A stretch of DNA of 60,930 bases, filler included. It is 14 parts of 14 records of this genome, joined end to end, with 100 filler letters (N's around TTAATTAATTAA, not from the genome) between each part and the next. Parts side by side here need not be neighbours in the genome. Positions count along the whole stretch, not along the records: positions 22,120 to 25,319 come from SRR7504441_18547; 13 more parts are not named here. One strand, 5' to 3'. The notes below the pieces were generated by a model, which was given only the letters and a program-made list of their open reading frames with translations, did not search any database and was not told the DNA's origin. Numbering within the stretch: the first letter of the stretch is position 1; every line of letters starts with the position of its first letter. The translations under genes and the position numbers were made by a program. Below are positions 50-55,999 of the stretch, piece after piece.

Positions 50-723
50 ATGATAGTGGGGCTCGGCGTCATCTGCCGCGACGTGAGCCTACTCCCCAGC
101 CGCCTGCCGCGCCAGGCTGGCCGTCACTCTGCTGGGCAGAACCACCCTCTGTACATCAAGAGCTGGGGCACAGACGACCCTGACCCGTTCAAGTGCCCCC
201 GCCCCCCGCGGCTGGCGGCCCAGGCCGGCCAGATTTCACCGGATCATCCACCGGGCGCTGGACTTCATCGAGGAGCGAGGTGCCGCCAGCCCAGCGGCCC
301 GCTGACCACCCGCAGTCAAAACCCGGCCCTCCGACCAGAAGCTGAGCAAAATGTGAGCGCAGCACCGGCCGGGGCCAGAGCTGCGGGTATAGGTATATCG
401 GGTTTCTGTATCCGACAGAGGACTACAAGACGTGGGTGCCTGGGGCGCGCCCGCTCACGAGTGGCGGCAGCTATGGTTACCTCACCCAGACTGGCACTAA
501 GCTGGTGCTCGTGCTGACCGACACCTCAGCTAACGACGGCAACATCAATCATGTGGCCCGGCCCGGTGCTCGTAGCTCACAGAGACTGGGGCAGTTTTTC
601 AAGCGGTTTCACGAAATCTATTGCAGGGCGGTCTGCAACCCTTTCTACAAGCTAGGGACCCCGATCACGGCCAAGCGCTTCGAGGAGCAGCTGGACGATT
701 TAGTCAAGCGGTGCAGTAAGTGA
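50..723 (+). CDS. TRAPPC2L: Trafficking protein particle complex subunit 2-like (sedlin family), 7 exons
   Basis: Removing GT-AG introns 83-139, 193-232, 280-315, 353-392, 432-470 and 553-594 gives MIVGLGVICRDNHPLYIK...FHRIIHRALDFIEER...[28 protein letters not shown]...FFKRFHEIYCRAVCNPFY, a typical sedlin-family sequence. Confidence 0.88.
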
Positions 724-3897: not shown

Positions 3898-5414
3898 TCA
3901 GAGCATCAACCCCTCGACTCCGTCCGACACTCTTAGCACGTCTAGTATATTATCATCGTCTTTGCTCTCACTGCTCACACGGAGTAGGTCTTGCTCGATG
4001 TTAGCCTGCACACTCGTCAGCCACACACTACGCGCACTGGCCTGGATCTCGGATCTGGGCACTTGCTCGTTATGGTTAATATGCTCCATGGTGATCGGGG
4101 TGGGCAGCGCGGCGCTGGTCTCGTTGTTGACCATGTTGACCATCATGCTGTGCTCCGCAGGGTACCCGTCGGAGATCCGAACCAGGTCTGTCTGCATCCC
4201 CTGCTGGTCGCACCCGGCCAGGATCATCGACTCCTCCTGCCCCCGCTCAGCCAGCCAGCTGGACCTCCCGCACCTCGTTGCTCCCGCCGGAGCACCGGAG
4301 CAGGAAGTCCTCCAACATCTCTGCAGAGCCACGCAGCTCGTCCGCTTGGCCGGACTTGCCCGAGATTCTAAGCAAATCGTCGGTCAGCAGCTCCTCCACC
4401 ACGTCTGAGCTCCGGAGCAGCTCGGTGACGAACTCGTCGCTTATCTGAGTCTGGTCGGGGATCGGCTCGTCACCGCTAAATCTGAGTGCCATTGCCTGCT
4501 CTAGCCTCTCCCTCTGAAAGTCGTTCAACTTGCCCCACTCGTCGCTCAGCCGGTTGGCGTCCACCGACTGGTACTGGTGGTACTCGACTGGCTGTTGCTG
4601 GAACCAGCTGCCCAGGTTCTCCACCTGCTGCTGCTGACCAAACCAGCTGCTTACGGCGGCTGCAGGATTGGCCTGGCCTCGCTTAGTCGGCTTGCGCCGC
4701 TTGGAAGTGGGGGTTTCGCCTAAGCTCAGCTGCTGCTGGCCCGGCGGGCTGTCCCCTGGCGAGCTCCCGGGCGAGCTAGTGTCGTACAGCTCGGACCCGA
4801 CGGTCGTGTCTGACTCTGCGCTCGTCCTAATCCCCGGTCCCCAACCAGTCTGAGTGCAGTTTGCCCAAGGGTGGGTGCTCCCTTCCCAGAGCCCGCTGCT
4901 CGGACTGGCCACCGGCACCGCCGCGTTCCTCCCGCCCGCCTGGTTGGGCTTCCTGTTGGCCCTCCGCTTGCGCTGCTGCTGGTTGGCAGCCGTCGGCAAG
5001 ATCATTATGACCTGCTCCTTCCCGATCTGAGAGCAGGTGGCCTCCCTGGACACTGGAATGGTCCAGTCAAGCACCCCGTAGTCCCGCATGTGCGGCAGCG
5101 TCCCGTCGTTGGCGCAGTCGACGCAACGGCACGCCGCACTGCAGGCAACCCCGGCCTGGAAGCATTCGCAATACTTTTTGCGGCAGCTCGACCGCTGGCA
5201 GTTGCACCCTCGCGAGTGCGACAAGCCAGACTTACCGTTGCTCCCCACGGTGGCCTTGAACTTGGGCCGGAAGGCGGTCCGGTTCCGGGAAAGCTTCTGC
5301 TGCACCGCTTTCCGCCTGGCCTCGGTATGTTGGGCTGTATTCTCGCAGTCCTTGCATTTGCACCCGGCGCTGCACAGCAGGTTGGCCGCAAAGCACTCGC
5401 AGTAGAGCTTGAGG
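3898..5414 (-). CDS. Tesmin/TSO1/LIN54-like CXC (CRC) domain DNA-binding protein, 5'-truncated
   Basis: Two CXC domains (LKLYCECFAANLLCSAGCKCKDCEN; GCNCQRSSCRKKYCECFQAGVACSAACRCVDCAN) with RNRTAFRPK linker; one short GT-AG intron near 4237-4272. Confidence 0.85.
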
Positions 5415-5830: not shown

Positions 5831-6439
5831 TCACTGCATCTGGCAATCCGGCATTTCCTGTCCTCCCCCAACTGAGGCCGTGAACTCCTGGGCGCCGTCC
5901 TTCATCCACTGGTCGAACTCAGCCCTAGAGACCTGCGAGCGCTCAGCCCCATACCGGCCCTGGACGCGCCTTATCGTTGCCGTCCTTGTCCATGTGGGCA
6001 AACAGCTTATTCGCCTGCCCCCTGGCTCGACCGGCCGGTCAGCTCGAGGCTGCACCCCCTCCTCAGATTTCATCGTCTCTGCCAGTGCCTCCATCATCGG
6101 CTTCAGTGCCTCCAGCATCTTCTTGCCCCCAAACATCTCCATTTGCTCACGTTCCTCCGAGCTCATCTTGTCCCAGGCCTGGTCGATCCCCTTCTCGTAC
6201 GCCTCAACCATCGCGCCGGCGAGGTCCTTCCCGACCTGCTTGGCCTCGTCCTTGGACAGGTACCCGGACTCGTCTTTGTCGTATTCTTTCCAGAGCTTGT
6301 CCGAGTCGATGTCCTCGTTCGTCATCATGTGTTCCACCCAAAGGTCCTGCGACGACGTGCCACCCTGCCAGCCACTCGCATCAGCACTCCGGCGGATCGC
6401 ACCATCGCGACTGTCGTTAGACGTGCGTTTTAACGACAT
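5831..6439 (-). CDS. Small EF-hand calcium-binding protein (start 6439 or 6328)
   Basis: EF loop DKDESGYLSKDE; second loop DKDGNDKVSRAE is restored after removing introns 6015-6055 (GT-AG) and 5933-5969 (GC-AG). Confidence 0.75.
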   Translation of the reverse strand: MSLKRTSNDSRDGAIRRSADASGWQGGTSSQDLWVEHMMTNEDIDSDKLWKEYDKDESGYLSKDEAKQVGKDLAGAMVEAYEKGIDQAWDKMSSEEREQMEMFGGKKMLEALKPMMEALAETMKSEEGVQPRADRPVEPGGRRISCLPTWTRTATIRRVQGRYGAERSQVSRAEFDQWMKDGAQEFTASVGGGQEMPDCQMQ

Positions 6440-8206: not shown

Positions 8207-9274
8207 ATGGAGAGGGTGAAGTGGCGGCGCTTGCTGCTGGGCTTGGCCCTGGTGCAGGCCGTACTGCTGCTGTTCGGGTGGCTGGCGGAATCGGGCATCG
8301 GCCAGTCCCAGCCGACGGTGCTAGTGACTGGCGGACTGGGCTTTATTGGCTCACACGTCGTCGAGGAGCTGGTCTCGAGAGGGTACCGTGTGGTCATTCT
8401 GGACGACGAATCCAACGGGCACAACCGCCCCCCGAGCCCGGTCCAGGCGATCAAAGGGGATATCATCCGGGTCGACGACCTGGCGATGGTGCCCGGTGCA
8501 CCTGAGTACATTGTGCATCTGGCCGCGGCCATCAGTGTGGCAGAGTCGATGAAGACCCCCGCGAAGTACCGGCGAATCAACGTGGACGGCTCGGCTAAGG
8601 TGCTGGAGTGGGCCCGGACCCGCTGGGGCACAAAGATGGTGGTTGCCGCCAGCAGCGCTGCCGTGTACGGCGACAAGGCCCAGCTTCCGATCCGCGAGAC
8701 GAGCCCCTATGCTGGCCTATCGCCGTATGCCGAGTCCAAGTACAAGATGGAAGCGCTAATGTACAAATGGGCGCTGCATGGCGGTGGCGGGGCGGTGGCG
8801 CTTCGATTCTTCAATGTATACGGACCGAGGCAGGACCCCAAGTCCGAATATAGTGGCGTAATCTCCAAATTTATGCAGGCCGCGCAACAGACAGCAGGGG
8901 GCGCTGCCGAAATCAAGATATTCGGAGATGGCAAGCAGACACGTGACTTCGTCTATGTAAAGGACGTGGCCCGGGCGATCCGTATGGCGCTAGTGTCTGG
9001 CCGCACGGGGTTTGGGGTCTACAATGTGTGCACGGGCCAAAAAACGAGCATACAACAGCTAGCCGAGACTGTGAGGACAGCGTTTGCGGCACCAGGCAAA
9101 ACGATCACAATTGCGAACTTGGCGGCTCGAAGTGGAGACATAAAGGAGTCTGTCTGCGATCCTCACAAGATCCAGGAGGCGCTGGATTGGAAGTTTGACT
9201 ACACGATACAACGTGGCCTCCAGATGACCAAAGAGTGGTTCACGTCTAGCTCACTGGACAGTGGGTTCACGTAG
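8207..9274 (+). CDS. NAD-dependent nucleotide-sugar epimerase/dehydratase (GalE-like) with N-terminal membrane anchor
   Basis: TGGLGFIGSH, HLAA, SSAAVYG, YAESK (YxxxK), LRFFNVYGPRQ, GDGKQTRDFVYV; intronless. Confidence 0.9.
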   Translation: MERVKWRRLLLGLALVQAVLLLFGWLAESGIGQSQPTVLVTGGLGFIGSHVVEELVSRGYRVVILDDESNGHNRPPSPVQAIKGDIIRVDDLAMVPGAPEYIVHLAAAISVAESMKTPAKYRRINVDGSAKVLEWARTRWGTKMVVAASSAAVYGDKAQLPIRETSPYAGLSPYAESKYKMEALMYKWALHGGGGAVALRFFNVYGPRQDPKSEYSGVISKFMQAAQQTAGGAAEIKIFGDGKQTRDFVYVKDVARAIRMALVSGRTGFGVYNVCTGQKTSIQQLAETVRTAFAAPGKTITIANLAARSGDIKESVCDPHKIQEALDWKFDYTIQRGLQMTKEWFTSSSLDSGFT

Positions 9275-14257: not shown

Positions 14258-15416
14258 ATGACCGAGTCCGAGCAGCTGTACAAGGAGGCCAACTCCGCCT
14301 TTGTGGACGAGGACTACGAGACCGCCCTGACGCTCTACGGCAAGTCGATCGAGGCCGGCCCCACCGCTGAGGCTCACGCCAATCGGGCGCACGCGTGCCT
14401 CAAATTGGAGCGGTTCGCCGACGCGGTGCGAAAGCAGGCCCGTCCCGGCTGAGCAGAGGTGCAGGTGGAGGATGGGGGCAAAGCGATCGAGCTCGATCCG
14501 AGCATGACCAAGGCGTTCATCCGCAAGGGCACCGCCGAGTTCGAGCTGGAGCGATTCGCGGACGCCAAAAAGACCTTCGAGCAAGGCCTTGCGCTGGAGC
14601 CCGAGAATAATAGCCTCAAGGAGTGGAACCGCAAGTGCGTGGCCGAGCTGGAGCTCGAAGGCCAGGTGGAGGTGCTCCCCAACGACGGGGCCGCTCCAAA
14701 GCTCCCGGTGCCCAGTGGGGAGGCCGAGCCTGCGCCTGCCCCCGCGGCCCCGGCTACCATGGGTGAGAAGTGCCGCTACGAGTGGTGCGCACCTGGCAGG
14801 CAGCAGCCGGCTGATCTCGGCCGGTAGGTACCAGAACGTGACGCACGTGATTGTGACGATTTTTGCAAAGAACAGGACGAGTGAGCACACCAGCCTGCAG
14901 CTGCAGGAACCGTTCCTGGACTACGCGATTCAGTTCGACGACGGGAGCGAGTTCCGGCTGAGCTGCCCGCTCTTCGACGCAGTGGTGCCAGATGAGAGTA
15001 AGGAGACCATTGGCAAGCCTAAGATAGAGCTTAAACTGAAGAAGAAGAACGATGTCAAGTGGGAGAAGCTGGAGCGCAAGGAGGGCGCAATGCTCCAGTC
15101 AATGGAGCAGGCAGCGCAAGTTAAGAAGGCGGCGACACCGTACGCGTCCAATAAGAACTGGGATCAGATAGATGCGGCATGTGGTGAAGACATAGCAAAC
15201 GACAAGCCGGAGGGTGAGGCGGCACTCAACGCTCTCTTCCAGGACATATATGCCAAGGCGGACGAGAACACCCGCCGGGCCATGAACAAGTCGTTCCAGA
15301 CCTCGGGCGGCACTGTACTGAGCACTAACTGGGGTGAGGTGGGCGAAAAGGACTATGAGAAAGAGGGCATCAAAGGCCCTGATGGGATGGAATGGCGCAA
15401 GTACTCAGACAATTAA
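14258..15416 (+). CDS. SGT1: SGT1 co-chaperone (TPR-CS-SGS)
   Basis: TPR N-terminus; CS domain RYEWYQ...KIELKLKK; SGS domain AALNALFQDIY...RAMNKSFQTSGGTVLSTNW; introns 14426-14464 and 14785-14827. Confidence 0.95.
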
Positions 15417-15696: not shown

Positions 15697-17328
15697 TCAG
15701 GTCATTTCGCTGTGCAGCTCTATTGCCTCCTCTGTCTCTACTAAACCTGAGTCGATGCTTATCTCGATGGTCGCCTTGGAACAAGGTGTTGTGGATTGCA
15801 AGCCATGGGCACCGGACCGATCAGCATCAAGCGGCAACTGGAGTACCATTACAATGCTCACCATAACTAGCGCAGATAGGACAAAATACACAAGCCATTG
15901 CCGACCAGGAAACTCGAGCATGGAGAGTGATAGGCTCCAGATCCAGCCACAGCAAATGGGCGAAACCATCCTGGTCAGCGAGCCGCATGACTGCGCGATT
16001 CCGTTGGCAAACGCCAGTCGGGGGCCCTCACAGCGGCATGCTATCACCATCATGACACAGGTGAATGTGGTGGAGTAGCAGGCTACTTTGACCAGCTGGA
16101 GCAGCGTGATCCCAGTCCACACCATCCATGGCTTGGAGACGTAAGCCAGCGCTGGGAACCCCAAGTACATTGGGACACACATCAGAGAGAGTGCCAGCAT
16201 CAGCTGTCGAGCGCTAAACTGCTCTGAGAGCCATGGGAATACTACAAGTTGAAACGGAAGCAGCATCACTCCTCCAATCATCAACGAGATGCCAACCTGC
16301 GTCGTATCGAACTCGAGCCCGATGCCAGCAGGAGCTTTGCAAAGGACAGACCAGAGCTCCTCATAGGATATCTGGTGCGAGCAGAGCAGCGCGTAGATTG
16401 AAATCGAGGTCAGGGCATACGGGGTCTCACGGAGCCAAGACAGGCCCTCCCAGCACCGCTCCTCCTCAGGGCCCTCACTAGCTCGCTTGGACTCTTCACG
16501 GTCAACGAACGGTGTGGTTTCAGGTAGGTAAAAGTAGCCATAGACAAACCCGGTCAGAGAGACCATCGCCACGCACATGCACGGCAGCATGAACGGCTTA
16601 CTCACAAACAGCGGTATGCTGTCAAACAACGGATATTTCTCCGCAGGCCGTGAGAGCAAGCCCCCCATCGCTGGCGCCACCAGAGTGCCTATCGCCCAGC
16701 AGAAAGAGAGCGTTGAGAATCCGACAGCCCGGTTCGAGTCGTCCACAATCTCAGCCAGATACGTCTTGGAGATTCCGATGTTCCCGTTCAGTAAGCCAGC
16801 AATCACCCGGGCCGCTACGTTCCAGCCGAGCGAGATGTTAGCCTGCCACCGGAGCTCAGCCAGCCCTGACAGCCCGCACCCCGAGCAGAATAATCGAGCC
16901 GGCCGCGGCCAGCACCCCAAACAGCAGAGCCGGCCTCCGGCCAAACCGATCTGCGAACCAGCCCCACACTGGAGACGCGACCAATTGGCCGGCGAAGAAG
17001 CCTGCTGAGAGCACCCCGACCCAGCCGCTGCCGAGTGGTCAGTACGGGCGGGCGCGGGAGGGCACCCGATCTCCTTCTCGGGGATCCCGAGATCGCTCAT
17101 CATGAACGGGGCCATCGACCATATCACGTTAATGTGGAAGCTCTCGCTCAGGTTGATTGCTCCCAGCGCCACCAGCCTGGCCAGGAAGTCGCGGTCGTGG
17201 TACCACGCCGCCGGCCCCTTGCCAGCCTCCTCCATCCCGCCGGCCACCGGCTGCAGCTGCGGGCTGGAGCCGCTGGACGGCTGCCCGGGCTCCTCGCCGC
17301 CCACCGGCGTCCAGCGCGGCGACTTCAT
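15697..17328 (-). CDS. Major facilitator superfamily transporter (ZIFL/DHA1-like)
   Basis: After two short introns: WGWFADRFGRRP (motif A), GLLNGNIGISKTYLAE, APAMGGLLSRP; many transmembrane segments. Confidence 0.88.
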   Translation of the reverse strand: MKSPRWTPVGGEEPGQPSSGSSPQLQPVAGGMEEAGKGPAAWYHDRDFLARLVALGAINLSESFHINVIWSMAPFMMSDLGIPEKEIGCPPAPARTDHSAAAGSGCSQQASSPANWSRLQCGAGSQIGLAGGRLCCLGCWPRPARLFCSGCGLSGLAELRWQANISLGWNVAARVIAGLLNGNIGISKTYLAEIVDDSNRAVGFSTLSFCWAIGTLVAPAMGGLLSRPAEKYPLFDSIPLFVSKPFMLPCMCVAMVSLTGFVYGYFYLPETTPFVDREESKRASEGPEEERCWEGLSWLRETPYALTSISIYALLCSHQISYEELWSVLCKAPAGIGLEFDTTQVGISLMIGGVMLLPFQLVVFPWLSEQFSARQLMLALSLMCVPMYLGFPALAYVSKPWMVWTGITLLQLVKVACYSTTFTCVMMVIACRCEGPRLAFANGIAQSCGSLTRMVSPICCGWIWSLSLSMLEFPGRQWLVYFVLSALVMVSIVMVLQLPLDADRSGAHGLQSTTPCSKATIEISIDSGLVETEEAIELHSEMT

Positions 17329-17506
17329 TGCTTCGGTCGCACTGGTCTCCCGCGACCACGCAATAATAAAAAGTAGGAGGTTACTATTCTCCAGGCTACA
17401 GAGTAGTGCAGAGCAGTGCGGCTGTACAGTGGAATCGGGGCGGGAGTACGCACAGTGTTAGTCTTTCTAAGCACTGCGGCTGTACAAGGAATGACTCAAG
17501 GAGAGT

Positions 17507-21381: not shown

Positions 21382-22416
21382 AAGCACCCGAGGTATTCAC
21401 TTTATCCACGCCGGTATCGATTTAGTAGACTATTGATTGCACTAGTACTGGCACTAGTGTGCTGTCGTTTATTCGCTCCAATATACTGGTAGTGCTAGCC
21501 TATAACCTAGGTTTGATACATGTAAAAAGCATGGCAGTTCTATATATAACATTAGATGAATGATCCATAGGACACAATCGGCACACACTCATTATCATTC
21601 ATTACCACACATAGTTTATTTAACACCATTCAGTTCTGTCACTCAAGTAACAGAACTTCAGACCGACAGTAGTCCGTTCGGATAGCTCTGGTCTGTTACT
21701 GGTCTGTACGAGTATATTCAGACTGGATATCGCTGAAACCTGCCGCCCCTTTGCTCCTGGTGCGACTGGCCACCAGCAGTTTCCACTGGTTACTGGTGTG
21801 TCGGAGGCTTACATCTGTGAAGTCAGTCTCAACCAGATGTTGCTGCATGGCCTGCGGTGACCTGAGCTAGAACCTTGTCCGCTCCTCTGAACAATGGCGC
21901 CCGATCTGAAGAGACACTCTACTAAAAGAGGCCCCGAGTGCGATAGATTACATACATCTGCTTGTGCAGCCACCGGGCCTGGTATGGGTCCATCCCTAGG
22001 CCATGGCTCGGAGCCTCTCNNNNNNNNNNNNNNNNNNNNNNNNNNNNNNNNNNNNNNNNNNNNTTAATTAATTAANNNNNNNNNNNNNNNNNNNNNNNNN
22101 NNNNNNNNNNNNNNNNNNNCAAACCTGCAGCTCCAACACGATTGTCGAAGAATTGCGGATGAGGATGGCCAGAAACCGGCTATCCTCACCAAAGTCCGAC
22201 TCCGATGATTGGAGCCCAAGTAAAAGCCACTAAGCGCTTGTCCACGCAAACATTTTTCTTATGTTGAAGATTTTAACAAAGTCTTTGAATAAAGCTTACT
22301 AGAGTCCATACATGTATAGAGAGTGGTTTTACTCGGACGAAAGCATCGACATTTACGAGTAATTTACGAGTAATAAGTTAATCATAGTAAATGGGCCAAT
22401 GACACATCGATGCCAC

Positions 22417-25049
22417 TTAGTCCTTGCGCAGCAACATCCGCACCTCACGCTCCAGCTGCACAACCCGGATCGCCTCCGACCGGTCATTCCCCTCGACCAG
22501 TGGCTCGATCGCCCGAGCTAGCCTCTCTGCAGTCTGACGCAGCTGCTCGCCGTCCGGTGAGCGGCTGGCCAGCAATCCGGCAGCCTCTATCATCCAGCCG
22601 ACTGCCACAAGCAGCTGCGGCTTGGTCTGCTCCTCGGGCTCGGTTGGGAGCAGCTCTGCCAGTCCGGCCAGCGCAGGCAGCCAGTCGCCCGCCCCGGCCT
22701 GAGCCATCCTGCAGACGAGCCCCGACCCGCCCAACAGCATCGGCCAGTCGCCCGGCCCGACGGCAAGCTCGACCGCCTGCAGTGCCGGCCCGGCCAGCTC
22801 TGCCAGCGCCAGCTGTAGACCTGGGACCGCCCAGCTGTTGGCGAGACCGCGCAGAGCCATCAGCCGCACTGGCCGGTCGTCAGCCTCGGCCCAGCCGACC
22901 AGCAGTCCAACCAATCGGTCGGGCTCGGTCGCCAGCTGTGCGGCCGCCGAGGGCCTGCAGAGCAGCAGTCGGAGCGCGTCCAGGATCACAAAAAGCCCGT
23001 CGGCCGGCCAACCCTCGAGCAGGTCTAGCAGCACGCCAGGCGACAGCTGGTCCGATCGGCTGCCCCCCGGCTCAGTCTGGCCTGGGCGGCCGACCTTGTG
23101 AGGCAGGCGGCCAGCTCCCCGAGGGTCTCCGCGTGCTCCGGCCCGCCCAGCGTGCCCAGTTTGCCCGCGATCCTGTCCAGATTGCCAGTATCAAAGGTAA
23201 GCGGCCGGCCCAGCTCGGAGGGCGCCCTCAGCTGCACCGGGGGTCAGCCGCTCCAGGGGAGCCGCACCAGGCAAGCCAGGACCGCGTGTGTGTTGCTCAG
23301 CCCGCCGCAGGCCGCCGTGAATCCGAGCCAGGCCGCGCCGTGCCGGAGCCCGAGCCCCGCCAAGTTGAGCTCCACCCCGCCAAGCATCGACTCGCCGTCA
23401 AGGTGCACAGAGAGCTCGGACACGCCCTGCTCGGAGACCGGGCTGAGCAGCACTCGGACAGTCCGGACGCTGTTGTCGGCCAGCCTGGGCAGCTCGGAGG
23501 TGCATCCGATCGAGCATCGGTGGTGGGCGCTGTTGGGCCCGGAGGCCTGGGTGTGGACGCTCAGGTGGTTGCCACTCGGGTCAGCGCTCGCCTCCTGGTT
23601 CATGTAAGTGTCAAAGTCTATGGCCACCGACTGAAGCAGCCCGCCGAAGCCCTGCTCGCTCCCGCCCTGGCCTATGGCCCGGCAACCGACCTGCCAGTCG
23701 CCGTGCAGCACCAGCGCCATCCCGTCTGCCTGCCCGGTGCCCAGCTGAATCTGGCACAGGATCTCAAGCCCGCCCTCCAGCTGGACCGGCCGCCGGAGCC
23801 AGACCGCCCCGGCCTGGTCCGGCTTCTGCTCGGTCAGCTGGCAGCCGTGCTCGGTCCACTTTGCGTCGCCCACCAGCGCCCACTGCTCGCTCTCGCTCAA
23901 CGGAGCCCACTCACCCAGCGCAGCCAGGCCCTCCGGGAGCACCAGAGAGCCGCACTCAGGCGGCCGGCCGCCCAGCTCGCCCCGGCTCCGGCGCCATGCC
24001 TCGGCCCCGGATTGGCGCCCGAGCCTCTCAGCCCTATTCAGCTCAGCCGCGCCGGAGTCACCGTGAGCCGCAAGCTCGGCAGCCTCACTCGCTTGCCGCT
24101 GGGCTAGAATCTCCGGCCTGGCACTGCTAGCCCTGAGCGCCTGGTCCACCAGCCCGACCGCCCGGCCCATCCAGTCCTCCGGCAGCCAGCGCCGGCCGGC
24201 CAGCTTGCTGCTGAAGAAGCAGGTGTACCGCTTGGTCACGTCGGCCATGTTGTCGCGTCCGGCAGAAACCACGTACGTGAGCTCCTTGCCCCAACCGGCC
24301 TCGTAGGTCATCGGGGCGTCCCGCGAGCCCTCGCACGCGTCCGAGTGCACCCAGCGCTGCTCGGGCTCCGACCAGACTTCGGTCCAGACGTGGTCTGTCC
24401 AGTCGCAGCAATACCGCGCCTCTAGCCCCACCGCCCGGCAGCACAGCGTGAAGCAGTTGGCGTACTCGCCGCAACGGCCGGTCCGCGTCTCGAGCAGCTT
24501 GGCCGGGTGGTTGTACCGCGGGAAGCGCGTCAGTTGCCCGCAGCTGTCGCACTGGTAAAGCTCGGTCCGGCCGGCCAGCCATCGGGCCTCCTCCGGAGTC
24601 GGGTCAACGCTCCCGATCCCGCGGGTGCTCGCGGCCCCGCAGTGGACGCAGCCCGGGGCGTCGGTCCAGCGGAAGAACTCGGCCTTGAACCAGCGGACCA
24701 GCTGGCCGTGCAGGGCGGCCATCAGCGCCCCGTGCGAGCCGTCCGGCACCGCCGCCTCGGCCTCGGCGCGCAGCCGTTGGACCGGGATCTGGCGGCGGGC
24801 GGCGAAGATCAGCTGCCAGTCCTCGTACATGAGCACTTGCCGGGCGTTGGCGACCAGTCGCTCGCCCATCTCCATCTGCTCCGAGGTGCACGGCCCGAGC
24901 CCGCCCAGCCGGAGCTGCCCGAGCAGGCCATCCAGCCCGGTCCTTGCCGCCGGCGCCTCGAGCACCGCCCGGATCTGACGGAAGAAAAGCCCCACCTCGT
25001 CCCACCGGTCCGGTCCCTGGCCTGCGGGTGCGGCAGGTGCTGACGCCAT
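22417..25049 (-). CDS. PNG1: Cytosolic peptide:N-glycanase (PNGase) fused to an L-type lectin domain and a PUL domain
   Basis: Zn motifs CVHC and CDSC; FPRYNHPAKLLETRTGRCGE, DHVWTEV, WVHSDACE; lectin motifs QAGAVW, ADGMALV, DFDTYMN, LGFTAACGG; introns 23232-23267 and 23060-23094 continue the frame into LTFDTGNLDRIAGKL...WPADGLFVILDALRL. Confidence 0.88.
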
Positions 25050-25527
25050 TCTGCCCTGATCCTGCGTCTGGACCTGGTCGTGACAAGGCAGGTAGGTAGG
25101 TGCTGACGCCTCGTGATGAACCGAAGACGCTTCGGCCGCTCTAGAGCACCTCGGCCGGGGGACGACTGCGATGATGTGGACCCTGGGCTGCGGGTGCTGC
25201 TCAGCGCCTTCGAGCAGGCCCACGCCGAGCTGGGTCTATCCGCGCTCTGATCTCGAGCCGGCAGGCGAGTTCTCTGACACCGCTACGGTAAACGTGTGAT
25301 TCAAGACTCATAGTTCCGANNNNNNNNNNNNNNNNNNNNNNNNNNNNNNNNNNNNNNNNNNNNTTAATTAATTAANNNNNNNNNNNNNNNNNNNNNNNNN
25401 NNNNNNNNNNNNNNNNNNNATTTACGCCAACACACTGATATGTGTTTTTTGCGCGCAGCCCTTCAGGCTTCCATGGAGCAAATGTAGTTCGTGCAACTTT
25501 ATCATCGATGTCGACTGCATCTGGCCC

Positions 25528-29941: not shown

Positions 29942-31505
29942 TCACACGAGTGCGACTTTAACTCTCTCTGCATGCCGCTCAGAGATCCTCATGTCGGGCA
30001 AGAGCTCAGTAGGCTGGGCTAACTCATATATCTCTGGATGCTCTATTATGAACGAGTCAGCCACTGGTGGGGTGTCGAGTGTAGTCCGCCTGGATCCATT
30101 GACCGACTTTGCCGGTTGCAACCCTGTTGGCGGGATTTCTGCCGCTGTTGAGGTTTTCAGCTGCCGCTGTTGTTTTCGACGTTCTCGATCTGCTGTTTCC
30201 TGCTTAGATGCCTTGTCGACCTCTCGCTTGAGCGCCTCCAGCTCACACTGCTTCTGCTTCTCCATGGCAGCCTGTGCCTTCTCCATCTTTTCGGGCGAAT
30301 GCTCCTGCTTGTACTGCTCGGCCAACTGCTTCTTAAGCATCTCGATCTCTTGCTGCTTCTCCGTCTCCATCTGCTCCCTCAGCTGTGCCATCTCATGCTG
30401 ATATAAAGCCTCCCTTTCCTGCTGTTGCCGCTGGACCGCCTCCATCTCGGCCTGGTGCTGGCTCATCAGACTGGCCATCTCCTGGTGCCATGCCATGTTT
30501 GCAGCCGCCTCCTTGTCCACACAAAGCAGCCGCCTCATGCAGTCAATCTCCCCGTAAGTTAACCCAAGAGACAGCGCATACCCGCTGCCCAGCAGTCAGC
30601 CCGGCCGATAGCGCGGGCGCACCGTGCAGCGACGTTGGCAGAGCTGGGCTTGCCCGGGGCGATCTGCTTGAGGTGCTCGATTGTTTGTTGCATCGCCTTC
30701 TCCGGCGATAGCAGCTGCCAGTCCTGACCACCAGCTGAGCTAGGGTTGAGGCTATTCAGGCACCTCGTACTTGGCCATCCGGGGCTGGCCGAGCCGCTTG
30801 GCCTTGAGCAGCTGGACCTCCGAGGCTGCATAGTCGGAGATCACTGTTTGCTCTGGCACTTCACACAGGAGCAACACTAAGGCTACCAGCAGCCCAGTCC
30901 GGTCCTTGCCGTGGATGCAGTGCACCAGTGTAGGGTAATTGGACGGCTCAGCAAAGTACTGCAACGCCTCCAGCAGTTCAGGCCCCGAGTTGTCCAGGAT
31001 GATGCAGTAGAGCCCTCCGAAACCGAGATGATCCCGTATGCTGCACTGCATCTGCAGCTCGGTGTCCGCGCTAAATACATTCGAGATGGCGTCCCCGGTG
31101 GGTATGGCCCGGAAGATGGCCAGACCCGTCGGGCTGGTGGGCACCAGGTTGACCAGGTGCCGCTCCACGTGCTCCGGGCAGCTGGAAGGTGCCACTCCAC
31201 TGGCGGCCGCCTCGGCCTCCTCCACGTCCTTGGGCCGGCGCAGATCCACGATGCACTTGATCACCATTAAATCCTGTACCGAGTACACCTCTGCCCCGGG
31301 CTCAGCCGGGCCGCCGGCCGGGGTGCGCGCCTGACGACCGGTAGAACATGTTGGGCAACAGCCCGCCGATGGCCCCGACGTCCCGCCAGTTGCATGGGCC
31401 CTTCCAGCTTGTGGTGCGGCACGAGCTCAATCGGGTGCTGGGCTTCTCCTGTCCCAGCGGCTTGGGCTTGTTGTCTGCGGGTTGCGCCGACGAGCAGTTG
31501 CCCAT
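29942..31505 (-). CDS. Protein tyrosine/dual-specificity phosphatase (Y_phosphatase3/IphP-like) with C-terminal coiled coil and a predicted N-myristoyl start
   Basis: MGNCSS start; NWRDVG, FYRSS, IVDLR, P-loop VHCIHGKDRTG, ISDYAAS; introns include GC-AG 31291-31330. Confidence 0.8.
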
Positions 31506-34038: not shown

Positions 34039-37000
34039 ATGGCTGAGCAGCGACGGCGGATCCCGCGACCGCCGGCCGTGCACGCAGCGGTCGGCCCCGG
34101 GGTGCAGGCCCGCCGGCCGCCTTCCCGCACGGCTGACACCCCGGACAGGTCTCCCGCCCACGGTCGCCGTCCCCACCAGCCCCGAGCGGCACCGGAGTGG
34201 GCTTGGGGGTTGCCCGGGCGGCGGCAGGCGGTGCGGACCGGCGGTGGGGCGGCCGGCTGACCGGGGGGCAGTTGTTGGGGCCTCTGAGCCGGGGCCTGCC
34301 GTGCTCTGGGAGCAGCCGGGCAGCCAGCCGAGCTACAGGTCTGTCAGCCCAAGCGCCACACCGCGGATTGTGCAGTTCCCGGACAAACTGCCGTTGAATG
34401 CCGTTGACCCGACCTCCATGCACAGCCAGCAGATTCAGGCCCTCCAGACCGACCAGGCCGCCCTCCGCGCGCTGGTGGCCGCGGTGCAACACCAGCAAAG
34501 CCCGTCCGGCCAGTTCAACTCCATCGACACGGACGGCGACGGCGTCATCTCCCGGACCGAGTGGGCGGACCATCAGGCCAAGCAGCTGGCCGTCCACCCG
34601 CAGCCCCCCTGGCGCACCCTGCAGGGCCCCCGGCGGGTTGCTGTTCGGAGCATCGCGCCGATCGGTGCCGGGCTCGTCGTCACGGGGTGTGCCGGGGGCA
34701 CCATCCGAGTGTGGGAGCTCGAAAGCGCCGGATGCCTGGCCGAGCTGCCCGCGCACGCCGGGGGTGTCAACGCGGTGGCTGCTGTGCCCGACGGAGCCAT
34801 CAGCGCCGGAGGCGATCGGCTGATCAGGCGGTGGGAGGTGAGCCGGTCGCCTTGGCGTCTCGAGTGCACCGCCGTCCTGGTCGGGCACGGGGCGGCGGTG
34901 CGCGCGCTGGCCACCGGCTGGGCCCCGCCGCCGATGGGCCCGGGCCGGCGGGAGGCCCAGGCCATTTACTCAGGAGGGAATGATCACCTGGTAATTATTA
35001 TTTATTACTCTCGCTGGCCCGCCTGAGAGCTGAGGGTAGGTCTGCCGCTGGGTGCCGGACAACCAGACATACCGGCCGTCCGTCTGGTTCGCCGGGGCCA
35101 AGGGACCAGTGGCCTCCGTGTGCGTGGCCGGGCCGTCGGTGTTTGGCGGTGCCCGTTCCGGCGGGGCGTGCTGACTTAGCGACGGTGGGGCAGGTTGCGA
35201 GGATAGAGCGGTGTACCAATGGGAGGCCGGGACCGGGCAGCTTGTGCGCGAGTTGCGAGGCCACACCGGCCCGGTGATCGGGCTGGCCATGGTCCCGCCG
35301 CAGGGCGTGGCGTCCGTCTCGCGGGACGGGGCTTGCCTCGAGTGGGAGCCCCAAGGGTCCGTGCGGCTCAGGCGTCAGCACCAGGTGAATTAATTATATA
35401 TATCTTTGAATAGTCGGCGAGCCGGGCGGGCAGGTGGGTGTGAGCGCCGTGTGTGCTGTGTGCGCCGCGGGCCGGGTGATCACCGGACACACGAACGGTG
35501 CCGTGTACGGAGACACTGCTAGCGAGCCTCTACAAGCGCACCATACTGGGGCTGTGACGGCACTGGCGGTCGAAGGCGGGTTGTTGCTTACAGGAGGGGA
35601 CGACGGGAGTGTGCGAGTGTGGCACGAGCCGTTCGATGGATGGGCGGGCGAGCAGGCTGGGGCGGGTCTTGAGGGGAAACTGGAGGAGTTGGAGAGCTCG
35701 AGGGATGAGATGTTTAACCAAATGGTGCAGGTGCTTGCCATAGCACAGACCGTAGCGCGTATATATATATACACGCTGTGTATACAGTGTGAGGTACTGA
35801 CCAGATCGTGTGCAGGCGAAGGTCGAGGCGGAGCAGCTCAGATACCAGCTGCACAAGCTACAGAATCAAGAACGCAGCCCCACCCCGCCCAGGCCCCGCC
35901 CGCCCTCCCCGACCGGCTTCCAGGCCATCGACACCGACCAAGATGGCCAGCTCTCACGCTCCGAGTGGGTTCACAGCCAGCCGCCGGCCAAGGGCGCGGC
36001 CGCGCTCCGGAGTTTCCACAACGCCGATGTCGACGCTGATGGCAAGCTGTCGCCGGAGGAGTATCGGCTGCACCAGACAGGCGGAACGGCCAAGGCGCGG
36101 CTGGGCAGGCTGCGGGACAAGGTGCTGGTGGGGGCTCGTATGGGTCTGTTCGGGAGACAGGCAGCCAATCTGGAGCAGCGGGCAGCGAGCGCCAAGGCCA
36201 GCCTGGCTAAGGTTCGGAATGCGGTGGTGGCGGGTGGGACGCTGGCCCGTTTAGCGCAGCAGACGACTGATCAGTTGGAGCGGACCGAGAAGGCGCAGAA
36301 GGCTTTGAATGGGTTGAGAGAAGGCGTGATGACGAGTGCGAAGCTGATGGCGTTTGCGAGGCACGCCGACCAGCTGGATAAGAGACAGCAGGAGGCTACT
36401 GGGGCGGAGCAGAAGGAGCTGGAGCAGCGGGCGAGTCTGGCCAAGGCTGAGCTGGAGCGGCTCAAGGACAAGGTGCTGGCAGGAGCGCAGGCCCAGTCCG
36501 GGCTCGAGCAGCTGGCTCAGCGGGCTGAGAAGGCGAGGACACAGCTGGCAAAGATGAGAGGCGTCGTGAATACAGCGTTCGACGTGGCGAAATTCAGCGC
36601 TAATCTTGAAGCCAAAGCTGAACAAGCCCGGGAGAGATTGGCACAAATGCGAGACCATTCAGACCAGGAGGCCGATCTCGAGAGGCAGGTGATGGAGCTC
36701 GAGAGGAGGGCGAGCGACGCTAAAGATAGCCTGGAGCGGATGCGGAGCAACGACAACCTCACGCCGTACGCGGTCAAAGGCAGCCAGTGCGGCAGCTTTG
36801 CAGACGAGTGCGAGGAGCTCGAATTGCGCGCGAGCGAGGCTCGTCAGCAGCTCCAAAAGATCCGGAGCTCGAGACCGTGGTTTGTCGGGAACGAGCCGAC
36901 GCTGGATGAGTACATGGAGGAGGTGCGCGACGTCGAGGCCGGGTTAGAGCGGCTGCGTGAGATCGAGGCGGATGCTCGCAGGGCGTTCGAGGAGGCTCAA

Positions 37001-53913: not shown

Positions 53914-54031
53914 CGTTACTATCTAGACTTGAGTTGAAATCACGCACACAACTGAATAATTGACACCTCATCGAGCTCTTGTTTTTTGGTGGGTGATCTG
54001 TACGGGATCCGGAACGAACATCAGCCGCACG

Positions 54032-55999
54032 ATGCAGGAGCTGGTGTCGCGGTTCTCGAAGGCGTGCCCTCGGGAGCTGCTGTACGCGCTGGCGGTCGGA
54101 TTCGTGCTTGGGCCGCTGCGCTGGCGGGAGGGGCTAGCCCGGGCCGCGCGGCTCCTCCCGTTGCTCCTGCTCGATCTACTGCTTCGCCCAGCCCGCCCCC
54201 CAGCGCCACCCCAGACGAAGCGCCGGCCGGTTGGGTCCCGGGCGACACTGGCCGAGTCGCCGAGCGGCGGGGGAGCGGACCGATGTGAACTGCTTGTATA
54301 CAATGTGTCGCACGCCGACCTTTACCTCGGGTATGGCCACGAGCAGCTCGCCCGGCCAGGGTTTAACCAATTCGACCAGGCGAGCCGGGCGCCCAGGGCG
54401 AGCACCAGCCGGGCGGCAGGTTGGCCGGGCGGTGCTGGCCTTCCTGGAGAGCACCGGGGACCCGAGCAGCCGGGCAGTATACCACCAGGCGGCCAACGGG
54501 TGCGACCAGCCGGGGCCAGCCGAGCCTCGGGCAGGACTGAGGTGCCGATCGGGTTCGAGGTTGAGGTCCGGGTGAGCCAGGACAAGCTCAGGGCCCGGGG
54601 GCGGCACGACAGCAACTGGAACAAGCTGCCGGTCGAGAGCCCGGACAGGCCAAAGCTGCAGGTGACTACTGTGTACCTGCCACTGCTCGCGATGCTCTTG
54701 CCGCGCTGGCTGGACCTGAGCCAGCACGGCGGATCGGTCACCCGGCGGTCGGTGATCCTAGTCAGCGGGGCCTCCACCCCGCGAAACCCGCACCACCGGC
54801 CGGCCGACAACTCGACTTGCTCTACAGCTCGGCTCTTCCAGGTCGCCAGAAAGCACTCGAGCTCGCTCAGCGGCTGGCCAGGTGTTTATCCAATGCTTCT
54901 TCCCGCAGATCAGCGTCACGCTGATCAACTCGGAGGAAGGCATCCTGCACTATGAAGACAACATGCGGCGCCCCCCCCCCTCCGGGCCGGCTACAGCTCT
55001 GGCAGGTTTGTTTTGCACACTCTCCGGCCTCACATCGAGCTAGAGCGGCGCGAGCTGGTCAAGCGGCACGGCGAGCGCTGGGCCGACAAACTCCAGCTCA
55101 CGCTCTCGCTGGGATCCGGCACACCGGCTAGAGTGGCCGCTATCAACGCCGGGCTGAGGCAATTCCGGCCGACTTGGCTGCACATCTGGCAGCCCAAACG
55201 ATTCTGGCATGAGTTCCCGCAGATGGCCCCGATCAGCGACGAGGACATCGACTATCACTCGTACTTTGACACCGAGCTGCTCCCAGCAACCCCGGCCGAG
55301 CTGTGCGAGCCTCAGGTACAGCTACTCATCGAGCAGATGGCTGCACACAGGGACAGATTCACTGCAGTGTGGGCCTCAGAGCACAGCTCAGAGCTCCGGT
55401 CCTTCTGGATTCGGAAGACCAAGCAGCCGGTGCTGAGCGTGCTGATGACTCAGCAGCAGGGCCGGCCACCCGACTTCCACTTTGGAGTCAACATGGAGGT
55501 CTCGATGCCGACAGGGTCGCTCTGCGCCGAGCGAAACGCGATCGGGAATGCACTGGCGGCCGATGCATCGCTCCAACGGCGGCACTTCTGCATGGTGGCC
55601 GTGCTCTGCATCCCGGACTATGCCGCGCTGCAATCGACGGCGATGGTCCAAAGCGAGAGCAAACCGCTAGACGGGATGAGCCAGCTATTGCTCCCCTCGT
55701 GCGCAGCCGACTTTGACCGCCCTCCGACCGAGAGCGCAGAGCCGACACAGCCCGGGAGCCCGACCGGAGAGCTAGTGAAACGGTCGCCGCGGTCGCCCAC
55801 GCTGAGGGAAATCAAGCCGGCGCCCGAGGACAAAGGACAGAGCGTGATCAAAGTCCGTTGGAAAGATAAGAACCCGCTGAGCCCGTGCGGCGCTTGCTCT
55901 GAGTGGCTACAAAAGCTCTCGGAAGTCAACCCAGACTTCAAAGTAATCACGTTCACAAGCATCGATTGCAGCCATGCCTACGTCAAGACATTCGTTTAA
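54032..55999 (+). CDS. Large cytidine-deaminase-like protein with extended N-terminal domains
   Basis: Zn motifs GSLCAERNAIG and PCGACSEWL; introns 54380-54419 (GC-AG), 54500-54534, 54842-54881, 54968-55005 (GC-AG) join the ORFs. Confidence 0.8.

What the first reader, a model, noticed from the sequence alone, without database searches (positions are those of the whole stretch)
22417..25049. PNGase-L-lectin-PUL fusion: an apparent convergent rebuild of the NGLY1 ERAD enzyme
Seen: the PNGase core has an intact Cys/His/Asp triad (GRCGE, DHVW, HSDACE) and two CxxC Zn pairs. It runs in frame into a legume/bacterial L-type lectin domain (about 23270-23890; ADG and DFDTYMN sugar/metal motifs present). 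Two canonical tiny introns (23232-23267, 36 nt; 23060-23094, 35 nt) then extend the frame into a PUL-like helical domain (LTFDTGNLDRIAGKL...WPADGLFVILDALRLLL...LMALRGLAN). The ORF track shows these as three separate ORFs. Established: vertebrate NGLY1 has a PUB domain (binds the p97/Cdc48 C-terminus) and a PAW mannose-binding domain; PUL domains of Doa1/PLAA also bind the p97 C-terminus. Inference: this lineage independently assembled glycan recognition, deglycosylation and p97 docking from different modules. I do not know of this architecture being described.
Basis: partly seen in the sequence, partly recalled or inferred. Interest (0 to 1): 0.88.

Follow-up and report, generated by a model that had tools for sequence, protein, structure and literature searches.

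The report
Protist PNGase with lectin and PUL domains
This is a real gene for a cytosolic sugar-stripping enzyme (PNGase) fused to a legume-type lectin and a Cdc48/p97-docking PUL domain, but the same three-part design is already annotated in amoebae and other protists, so it is a new member of a known kind rather than a lineage-specific invention.

Summary
On the minus strand, 25049..22420 reads as one gene of three exons, 853 aa. It has a PNGase core with an intact Cys193/His220/Asp237 triad and two CxxC pairs, an L-type lectin domain, and a PUL domain. Both proposed introns (36 and 35 nt, GT..AG) fit a tiny-intron class that is enriched in this assembly. That class is independently validated in an MFS transporter gene. 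No RNA contig covers the junctions, so splicing is inferred, not seen.

The same Transglut_core-Rad4-lectin-PUL order occurs in Balamuthia, Arcella, Naegleria, Willaertia, Acrasis and unnamed protists. Some of these carry database names such as "PUL domain-containing protein". The PNGase-lectin fusion was published in 2012 (PMC3502110). The PUL fusion appeared in no paper found in five searches. This scan also met the same architecture earlier, in Naegleria.

So lectin and PUL are non-homologous stand-ins for the animal PAW and PUB domains, but this lineage did not assemble them independently. Verdict: new member of a known kind, low interest.

The parts
23268..25049 (-). Exon 1 (594 codons from ATG 25049-25047): N-terminal region, PNGase core and L-type lectin
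   Evidence: Translation; Pfam; PDB matches; GC3 0.88. RNA contigs from 4 marine metatranscriptome runs lie on 24281-24877 with 0 or 1 differing letters each.
24075..24857 (-). PNGase catalytic/Zn-binding core (residues 65-325): C134/C137 and C167/C170 CxxC pairs, catalytic C193, H220, D237
   Evidence: phmmer alignment to mouse PNGase 2f4m (E 1.1e-65) and yeast Png1 1x3w (E 2.9e-52). Pfam Transglut_core and Rad4.
23280..23891 (-). L-type (legume-like) lectin domain, residues 387-590; ADG at 441-443; metal-site motif D478, D480, Y482, N484, D490, H495
   Evidence: Pfam PF18483 E 1.9e-21 (77.4 bits, cut-off 78.3). Legume lectin 7elv E 4.2e-11 with the motif aligned.
23232..23267 (-). Intron 1, 36 nt, GTGCGG...GGCTGAC...CAG; contains the in-frame TGA at 23246-23244
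   Evidence: Sequence. Matches the tiny-intron motif that is enriched in the window: 11 observed against 2.6 +/- 1.8 in 100 shuffles. It is the shortest of 4 GT-AG options that keep the frame open. Not seen in RNA.
23095..23231 (-). Exon 2 (45 codons plus 2 nt): linker and first PUL helix, FDTGNLDRIAGKL
   Evidence: GC3 0.84. Colinear with the PUL start of 12 fused homologs in MAFFT. The only hhalign hit lies at that same position, E 0.065. Not significant on its own.
23060..23094 (-). Intron 2, 35 nt, GTCGGC...ACTGAG...CAG; its removal shifts the frame into exon 3
   Evidence: Sequence. Of 3 frame-restoring GT-AG candidates, it is the only one that is neither 20 nt long nor deletes conserved PUL sequence. 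CTGA lies 12 nt before the 3' AG, as in intron 1. Not seen in RNA.
22420..23059 (-). Exon 3 (1 nt plus 213 codons): rest of the PUL (armadillo-repeat) domain
   Evidence: Pfam PUL E 3.2e-10. AlphaFold2 model with pLDDT 85.7, all-helical. VIA-align to the PLAA PUL 3ebb_A: Z 17.4, rmsd 2.7, 193 residues aligned. BLASTP to the PUL region of P0010: E 8e-4.
22417..22419 (-). TAA stop codon, followed by a lower-GC 3' flank (22120-22416, GC 0.42)

Best explanation
One spliced gene on a 3.2-kb contig of a GC-rich marine protist encodes an 853-aa cytosolic peptide:N-glycanase of the PNGase-lectin-PUL type.

Inferred mechanism:
- The transglutaminase-like core, with its Cys-His-Asp triad and Zn-binding CxxC pairs, cuts N-glycans off misfolded glycoproteins that have been pulled back into the cytosol.
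- The L-type lectin domain, whose Ca/Mn-site residues are intact, holds the glycan. The PAW domain does this job in animal NGLY1.
- The C-terminal PUL armadillo domain docks the enzyme on the C-terminal tail of Cdc48/p97. The PUB domain does this job in animals.

What is shown and what is inferred: the domain identities and the conserved residues are shown. Splicing, enzyme activity, sugar binding and Cdc48 binding are inferred.

The gene is a divergent member of an architecture that is widespread and patchily distributed in eukaryotes. It is not a lineage-specific invention.
For: Domains: Pfam; mouse and yeast PNGase cores with triad and CxxC aligned; legume lectin 7elv.

PUL fold: pLDDT 85.7; 3ebb_A at Z 17.4, with the highest identity (18%) among the top rows.

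PUL pocket. PMC2804184 lists 12 residues that contact or bridge the p97 tail in PLAA. I mapped them by chaining two alignments: window to Balamuthia P0008, and P0008 to PLAA 3ebb (E 7.8e-15). Eight of the 12 are identical in the window protein:
- N547 = N611, I551 = I615, K554 = K618, F611 = F663
- D615 = D667, R618 = R670, L657 = L706, R661 = R710
- L658 is replaced conservatively by M707.
D667 and R670 (D27 and R30 of P0003) are invariant in the 16-sequence alignment A1.

Single gene:
- The spliced protein is colinear with 12 fused homologs across both junctions.
- GC3 is high in all three exons.
- Exon 2 has no ATG, and the first Met of the exon 3 frame lies deep inside the domain.

Intron class:
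- The motif is enriched: 11 observed against 2.6 expected, with a maximum of 6 in 100 shuffles.
- About a dozen look-alikes of 32-44 nt lie on several contigs.
- Two look-alikes, at 17028-17065 and 16843-16879, stitch an MFS transporter together. The flanking exons match MFS_1 profile positions 34-79 and then 89-347.

Known kind.
Against: No RNA contig covers either junction. The 4 runs laid cover only 24281-24877, so splicing is not observed.

Exon 2 alone has no significant match: Pfam none; BLASTP against P0010, P0008 and P0037 none; hhalign E 0.065. In a home-made PUL HMM it adds only about 6 bits, 31.3 against 25.7.

The PUL part is very divergent. An exhaustive phmmer of 1.84 billion representatives gave 3 hits at E <= 0.001, none a known fused PNGase. 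phmmer against PDB gave none. Pfam covers only profile positions 65-153 of 277.

The fold match to PLAA is tied with importin-alpha (Z 17.5), so it shows an ARM fold, not PUL specifically.

Four of the 12 pocket positions differ: Q550 to R, A654 to P, L658 to M, and N697 to W or D (alignment unsure there).

The lectin Pfam score is 0.9 bit below the curated cut-off.

The contig ends 270 nt upstream of the ATG, so a further 5' exon cannot be excluded. The nearest relative, P0010, has an N-terminal ubiquitin domain.
Confidence: 0.8

Rival explanations
1. There are two separate products. A PNGase-lectin protein ends at the TGA 23246-23244, like the Acanthamoeba, dictyostelid and Mucorales forms. 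The PUL-like ORFs downstream would be a separate gene or a decaying remnant of a former fusion.
For: Many relatives are lectin-only. By my count about 55 of the 120 listed hits carry the lectin (PF18483) without PUL. No RNA covers the junctions. The PUL part is unusually divergent.
Against: Exon 2 has no start codon. The first Met in the exon 3 frame lies after the conserved FxxxDxxR helix. GC3 of 0.84 and 0.81 is as in exon 1. Both breaks are exactly bracketed by GT..AG with the CTGA motif of the assembly's validated tiny introns. Pocket residues are retained.
Confidence: 0.1
2. The stop and the frameshift are assembly errors of a short metagenomic contig, or real pseudogene lesions, and the intron-like boundaries are coincidence.
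For: The contig is only 3.2 kb, in a pseudo-scaffold of about 14 contigs joined by N44-TTAATTAATTAA-N44 linkers. GC-rich DNA offers many GT..AG pairs by chance: one search listed 426 candidates.
Against: Two independent lesions both fall inside motif-matching 35-36 nt GT..AG units, each with CTGA 12 nt before the AG. There is no other lesion in 2.6 kb. RNA contigs from 3 studies match exon 1 with 0 or 1 differences.
Confidence: 0.06
3. One reading: this lineage on its own assembled glycan recognition, deglycosylation and p97 docking from new modules, giving a convergent and undescribed rebuild of NGLY1.
For: Lectin and PUL are unrelated in fold family to PAW and PUB. No PUB or PAW was found here apart from an 18-residue marginal PAW hit at E 0.16. 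No paper describing a PNGase-PUL fusion turned up in 5 searches.
Against: The same domain order occurs in named Amoebozoa and Heterolobosea and in unnamed protists. The window protein nests among them in the tree, sister to the fused P0010 with SH-aLRT 80. Database names already exist. The lectin fusion was published in 2012.
Confidence: 0.04

Closest known systems
PNGase-lectin-PUL proteins of Naegleria gruberi (P0037, 'peptide N-glycanase'), Balamuthia mandrillaris (P0008), Arcella intermedia (P0011, 'PUL domain-containing protein'), Willaertia, Acrasis and the unnamed P0010
   Same: Same four Pfam families in the same order. Colinear over the whole length, including the lectin-to-PUL junction. 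36-41% identity over about 90% of exon 1.
   Different: The PUL is much more divergent and shorter: 40 bits, against 47-148 bits in the 8 fused homologs scanned. The gene is interrupted by two 35-36 nt introns. There is no N-terminal ubiquitin domain as in P0010. The host is an unidentified GC-rich marine protist.
Dictyostelium discoideum PNGase (Gosain et al. 2012, PMC3502110; passages read)
   Same: PNGase core followed by a C-terminal legume-type beta-lectin domain. DdPNGase was shown there to be an active deglycosylating enzyme.
   Different: The paper mentions no PUL domain, and the dictyostelid hits carry none. DdPNGase has a possible N-terminal UBQ-like region.
Animal NGLY1 / mouse PNGase (PDB 2f4m core)
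   Same: Catalytic core, E 1.1e-65, with triad and Zn site conserved. Overall logic of core plus glycan-binding module plus p97-tail-binding module.
   Different: Animals have an N-terminal PUB and a C-terminal PAW. Here there is no PUB, an L-type lectin replaces PAW, and the p97-tail binder (PUL) is C-terminal.
PLAA / Doa1 (Ufd3) PUL domain (PDB 3ebb; PMC2804184)
   Same: Armadillo-repeat fold: Z 17.4, rmsd 2.7 over 193 residues. Pfam PUL. 8 of 12 p97-pocket residues identical by the chained alignment.
   Different: In PLAA/Doa1 the PUL follows WD40 and PFU domains, not a PNGase. The window PUL is not detectable against 3ebb by direct phmmer.

Membership tests
Cytoplasmic PNGase (Png1/NGLY1, transglutaminase-like) | Cys-His-Asp catalytic triad in the transglutaminase-like core | tested here: met
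   C193, H220 and D237 align with the conserved CGE, DHVW and DxCE positions of mouse 2f4m and yeast 1x3w. The mouse numbering C306/H333/D350 is taken from PMC3502110.
Cytoplasmic PNGase (Png1/NGLY1, transglutaminase-like) | Zn-binding site made of two CxxC pairs | tested here: met
   C134-x-x-C137 and C167-x-x-C170 align with the mouse and yeast CxxC pairs.
Cytoplasmic PNGase (Png1/NGLY1, transglutaminase-like) | Deglycosylating activity on N-glycoproteins | not testable with these tools
   Needs an enzyme assay.
L-type (legume-like) lectin domain | Sequence membership in the family | tested here: met
   PF18483 E 1.9e-21, but 77.4 bits against a curated cut-off of 78.3. Solved legume lectin 7elv E 4.2e-11 over residues 384-588.
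L-type (legume-like) lectin domain | Ca/Mn-site residues (acidic-x-D-x-aromatic-x-N ... D ... H) and the ADG loop Asp | tested here: met
   D478, D480, Y482, N484, D490, H495 and A441-D442-G443 are aligned with the 7elv motif. The roles of these positions are recalled from concanavalin A, not taken from a call.
PUL domain (PLAA/Doa1/Lub1) | Pfam PUL above the curated threshold | tested here: met
   40.2 bits against 25.5, E 3.2e-10, but only profile positions 65-153 of 277.
PUL domain (PLAA/Doa1/Lub1) | Six-repeat armadillo fold like the PLAA PUL | tested here: inconclusive
   3ebb_A at Z 17.4 covers model residues 1-210. It is tied with importin-alpha at Z 17.5, so the result shows an ARM fold but not PUL specifically. 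Exon 2 was not in the model.
PUL domain (PLAA/Doa1/Lub1) | Conserved p97 LYG-tail pocket (PLAA I551, D615, L658 and neighbours) | tested here: met
   8 of 12 listed residues are identical, including I551 and D615; L658 is replaced by M. Mapped by chained alignment.
PUL domain (PLAA/Doa1/Lub1) | Binding of the Cdc48/p97 C-terminal tail | not testable with these tools
   No Cdc48 of this organism is in hand. No complex prediction was run.
PNGase-lectin-PUL architecture (Naegleria/Balamuthia/Arcella type) | Transglut_core, Rad4, L-type lectin and PUL in this order in one polypeptide | tested here: met
   Met if the two introns are spliced. Colinear with 12 fused homologs. Splicing is inferred, not seen in RNA.
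Animal-type NGLY1 (PUB-core-PAW) | N-terminal PUB domain and C-terminal PAW domain | tested here: not met
   No PUB hit. PAW appears only as an 18-residue match at E 0.16, 12.2 bits against a cut-off of 31.4.

The most novel reading that the evidence does not exclude
The lectin-plus-PUL PNGase is an ancient eukaryotic design. It is present in Amoebozoa, in Heterolobosea, and here in a GC-rich marine protist whose other contigs look stramenopile-like. It would be at least as old as the animal PUB/PAW form, and it would represent a second solution for coupling deglycosylation to Cdc48/p97 that has not been studied experimentally. This divergent copy would extend it to a third supergroup.
Probability: 0.3. 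Interest if true: 0.4.

Novelty: new member of a known kind. Interest (0 to 1): 0.22.

Why it matters
There is little here that is new. The gene adds a divergent, intron-bearing member from an unidentified marine protist to an already annotated PNGase-lectin-PUL family.

The modest wider point is that PNGases across eukaryotes swap their glycan-binding modules (PAW, L-type lectin, F5/8 type C, jacalin) and their docking modules (PUB, PUL, ubiquitin-like), as the hit list shows. The PUL variant has apparently never been discussed or tested in print. A binding test of a PNGase PUL with a Cdc48 tail would fill that small gap. The well-defined 32-44 nt intron class may help gene calling in this assembly.

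Tried and rejected
RNA at the junctions. The best public runs held only 5-9% of the sampled words. The 4 runs laid cover only 24281-24877, so nothing can be said about splicing, transcript ends or the PUL exons.

Whole genome. None is held for this window.

Relatives on other contigs. A scan of metagenome contigs with P0001 matched 40 pattern stretches, and none was confirmed by tblastn.

PUL relatives for a PUL-only tree, to test one or several fusion events.
- A region search with Balamuthia PUL residues 720-1015 found only the query itself.
- phmmer of P0003 against 1.84 billion representatives gave 3 weak hits.
- phmmer of P0003 against PDB gave none.
The tree was therefore not built, and gain versus loss of PUL stays open.

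Tree with the mixture model. It did not finish in two 300-s calls. The tree reported is the quick LG+G4 one. It has SH-aLRT support only, and several rows including the window's have odd composition.

Exon 2 on its own. No Pfam hit. No significant BLASTP match to 3 of 3 fused homologs. hhalign E 0.065.

Foldseek against PDB. No match at E <= 0.001; the top rows were designed ARM proteins, and 3ebb_B was at rank 39.

Blind search for tiny introns by open frames and GC3. It gave 426 candidates and was too noisy to use.

TGA read as a sense codon. Considered and rejected as an explanation: it could bridge the first break but not the frameshift at the second.

Earlier notes on this genome: none.
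Full report
What the window is. The 60,930-base window is not one stretch of chromosome. It is about 14 short contigs joined by N44-TTAATTAATTAA-N44 linkers. The finding lies on a 3.2-kb contig, 22120..25319, so the ankyrin and TPR genes beside it in the window are not genomic neighbours. No whole genome is held. GC is about 60%.

Checking the observation. On the minus strand, an ATG at 25049 opens a 594-codon exon.
- Pfam finds Transglut_core (E 5.4e-17), Rad4 (3.4e-9) and Lectin_L-type_dom (1.9e-21). The lectin score is 77.4 bits, just under the curated 78.3.
- phmmer against solved structures gives the mouse PNGase core 2f4m (1.1e-65), yeast Png1 (2.9e-52) and a legume lectin 7elv (4.2e-11).
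- In those alignments C193 (GRCGE), H220 (DHVW) and D237 (SDACE) sit on the catalytic positions, and C134/C137 plus C167/C170 sit on the Zn-binding CxxC pairs.
- In the lectin, A441-D442-G443 and D478/D480/Y482/N484/D490/H495 match the metal and sugar-site motif of 7elv. The roles of these positions are recalled from concanavalin A.
- The frame stops at TGA 23246-23244.
Removing 23267..23232 (36 nt) and 23094..23060 (35 nt) gives one open 853-codon frame ending at TAA 22417-22419.
- Exon 3 (P0003) hits Pfam PUL above threshold: 40.2 against 25.5 bits, E 3.2e-10, profile positions 65-153 of 277.

Are the introns real? I could not see them in RNA. Public runs hold only small parts of the gene. 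The four marine metatranscriptome runs I laid cover 24281-24877 only, with 0 or 1 differences. That shows the organism's exon 1 sequence is present in RNA libraries and nothing more. The support is indirect, in four parts.

1. GC3 is 0.88, 0.84 and 0.81 in exons 1, 2 and 3. GC falls to 0.42 directly after the TAA.

2. The splice sites leave little choice. Among GT-AG options, only 4 keep the frame open over the first break, and the 36-nt one is the shortest. For the second break there are 3. The other two are 20 nt long or delete conserved PUL sequence.

3. Both introns carry CTGA 12 nt before the 3' AG, and intron 1 starts GTGCGG.
- The pattern GTGCG..CTGA..YAG occurs 11 times in the window, against 2.6 +/- 1.8 (maximum 6) in 100 local shuffles.
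- A slightly relaxed scan lists 24 units of 32-45 nt, about a dozen of them close look-alikes spread over several contigs.
- Two look-alikes are validated by homology. In an MFS transporter gene, units at 17028-17065 (38 nt) and 16843-16879 (37 nt) join frames so that the MFS loop motif GWFADRFGRRP appears. The exons on either side of the second unit match MFS_1 profile positions 34-79 and 89-347 in order.

4. The spliced protein is colinear with 12 fused homologs across both junctions.

Exon 2 is the weak link. Alone it has no Pfam hit and no significant BLASTP match to 3 of 3 fused homologs. It adds only about 6 bits to a home-made PUL HMM. Its single hhalign hit, at E 0.065, does fall exactly on the start of the PUL of the homolog profile. 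I put the single-gene model at about 0.8.

Is the tail a PUL that could dock on Cdc48/p97?
- An AlphaFold2 model of exon 3 with 15 homologs as alignment is confident (pLDDT 85.7, pTM 0.79) and all-helical.
- Foldseek gives only armadillo proteins at weak E-values, with PLAA 3ebb_B at rank 39.
- VIA-align puts the PLAA PUL 3ebb_A at Z 17.4 (rmsd 2.7, 193 residues, 18% identity, chain 578-795). It is tied with importin-alpha at 17.5. That shows an ARM fold and is compatible with PUL, but it is not specific to PUL.
- The PLAA-p97 paper (PMC2804184, passages) lists the residues around the p97 Leu804/Tyr805 pocket. The Balamuthia PUL aligns to 3ebb at E 7.8e-15. Chaining that to the window alignment gives 8 of 12 identical: N547, I551, K554, F611, D615, R618, L657 and R661. 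L658 becomes M, Q550 becomes R, A654 becomes P, and N697 is uncertain.
- Three of the identical residues (N, I, K) lie in exon 2's FDTGNLDRIAGKL. This is the best argument that exon 2 is part of the domain.
- D27 and R30 of P0003 are invariant in all 16 aligned sequences.
Binding itself is inferred.

Comparison with what is known. The search with exon 1 returned 1331 proteins at E <= 0.001, of which 120 are listed.
- By my count about 67 of the 120 carry the L-type lectin.
- 14 carry PUL, and 12 carry both.
- I rescanned 10 of these hits. All 8 with PUL have the order core-Rad4-lectin-PUL, with the PUL starting 10-30 residues after the lectin.
- Named bearers are Balamuthia and Arcella (Amoebozoa), and Naegleria gruberi, N. 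lovaniensis, Willaertia and Acrasis (Heterolobosea). Several are already named 'peptide N-glycanase' or 'PUL domain-containing protein'.
- Lectin-only forms fill Mucorales, chytrids, dictyostelids, Acanthamoeba and ichthyosporeans.
- Other PNGases in the list carry PUB with lectin and thioredoxin (P0009), ubiquitin with lectin and PUL (P0010), F5/8 type C (dinoflagellates) or jacalin.

A quick LG+G4 tree of 57 sequences places the window protein as sister to P0010 (SH-aLRT 80). That pair sits next to dinoflagellate and other unnamed PNGases (SH-aLRT 91, not starred). PUL-bearing sequences fall in at least three well-supported places, and the lectin+PUL label needs 5 changes on the tree, at least 3 of them forced by starred branches. 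The tree cannot tell gain from loss. Two attempts with a mixture model did not finish.

The host lineage is unresolved. An epimerase on another contig has its best named hits in oomycetes and diatoms at 47-51% identity, which is a weak stramenopile hint.

Literature. Gosain et al. 2012 (PMC3502110, passages) describe the active Dictyostelium PNGase with a C-terminal legume beta-lectin domain, and note the same domain in Naegleria gruberi. Five full-text searches found no paper describing a PNGase-PUL fusion. An NGLY1 review (PMC9102325, term search only) contains no mention of PUL or legume. Supplements were not consulted. This scan has already met the same architecture three times in Naegleria and drew the same conclusion.

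Verdict. The functional analogy with NGLY1 is reasonable. The claim of a lineage-specific, undescribed convergent assembly is not supported. The gene is a divergent new member of a known and annotated architecture whose PUL half is simply under-discussed. Interest is low.

Noticed in passing
whole window; linkers at e.g. 22020-22119 and 25320-25419: The window is a pseudo-scaffold of about 14 contigs of 3-6 kb joined by N44-TTAATTAATTAA-N44 linkers. Gene neighbourhood across a linker means nothing.
   Followed up: yes
280-315(+), 4006-4037(-), 4237-4273(-), 6365-6402(-), 14426-14464(+), 16843-16879(-), 17028-17065(-), 30585-30622(-), 34231-34271(+): A class of tiny introns of 32-44 nt with consensus G|GTGC(G/C)...GGCTGA(C/G)...(8-12 nt)...CAG. 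The strict motif occurs 11 times against 2.6 expected. The fixed branch-like CTGA and the narrow length range are unusual and could help gene calling in this assembly.
   Followed up: partly
15700-17331 (-): An MFS transporter gene split by two of these tiny introns (17028-17065 and 16843-16879). The exons match MFS_1 profile positions 34-79 and 89-347 in order.
   Followed up: yes
53960-55996 (+): Two long ORFs in one frame, separated by a single stop at 54953-54955. The second carries an LmjF365940-type CDD/CDA-like deaminase domain (E 1.5e-53). No tiny-intron motif was seen at the stop, so the gene structure is unresolved.
   Followed up: partly
8261-9271 (+): An NAD-dependent epimerase/dehydratase whose best named relatives are oomycetes and diatoms at 47-51% identity, with unnamed marine sequences at up to 64%. 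This is a weak hint that the organism is a stramenopile.
   Followed up: partly
proteins P0009, P0010, P0079, P0069: PNGases are domain mosaics. Combinations seen: PUB + lectin + thioredoxin (P0009); ubiquitin + lectin + PUL (P0010); F5/8 type C + thioredoxin (Symbiodinium); jacalin (P0069). The PUB-plus-lectin hybrid shows that the two 'styles' are not exclusive.
   Followed up: no
protein P0124: The best hit of the window PUL in 1.84 billion representatives is a 2200-aa protein that matches residues 57-145 in 12 separate stretches. It is probably an unrelated Ala/Leu-rich ARM or HEAT repeat protein. Not examined.
   Followed up: no
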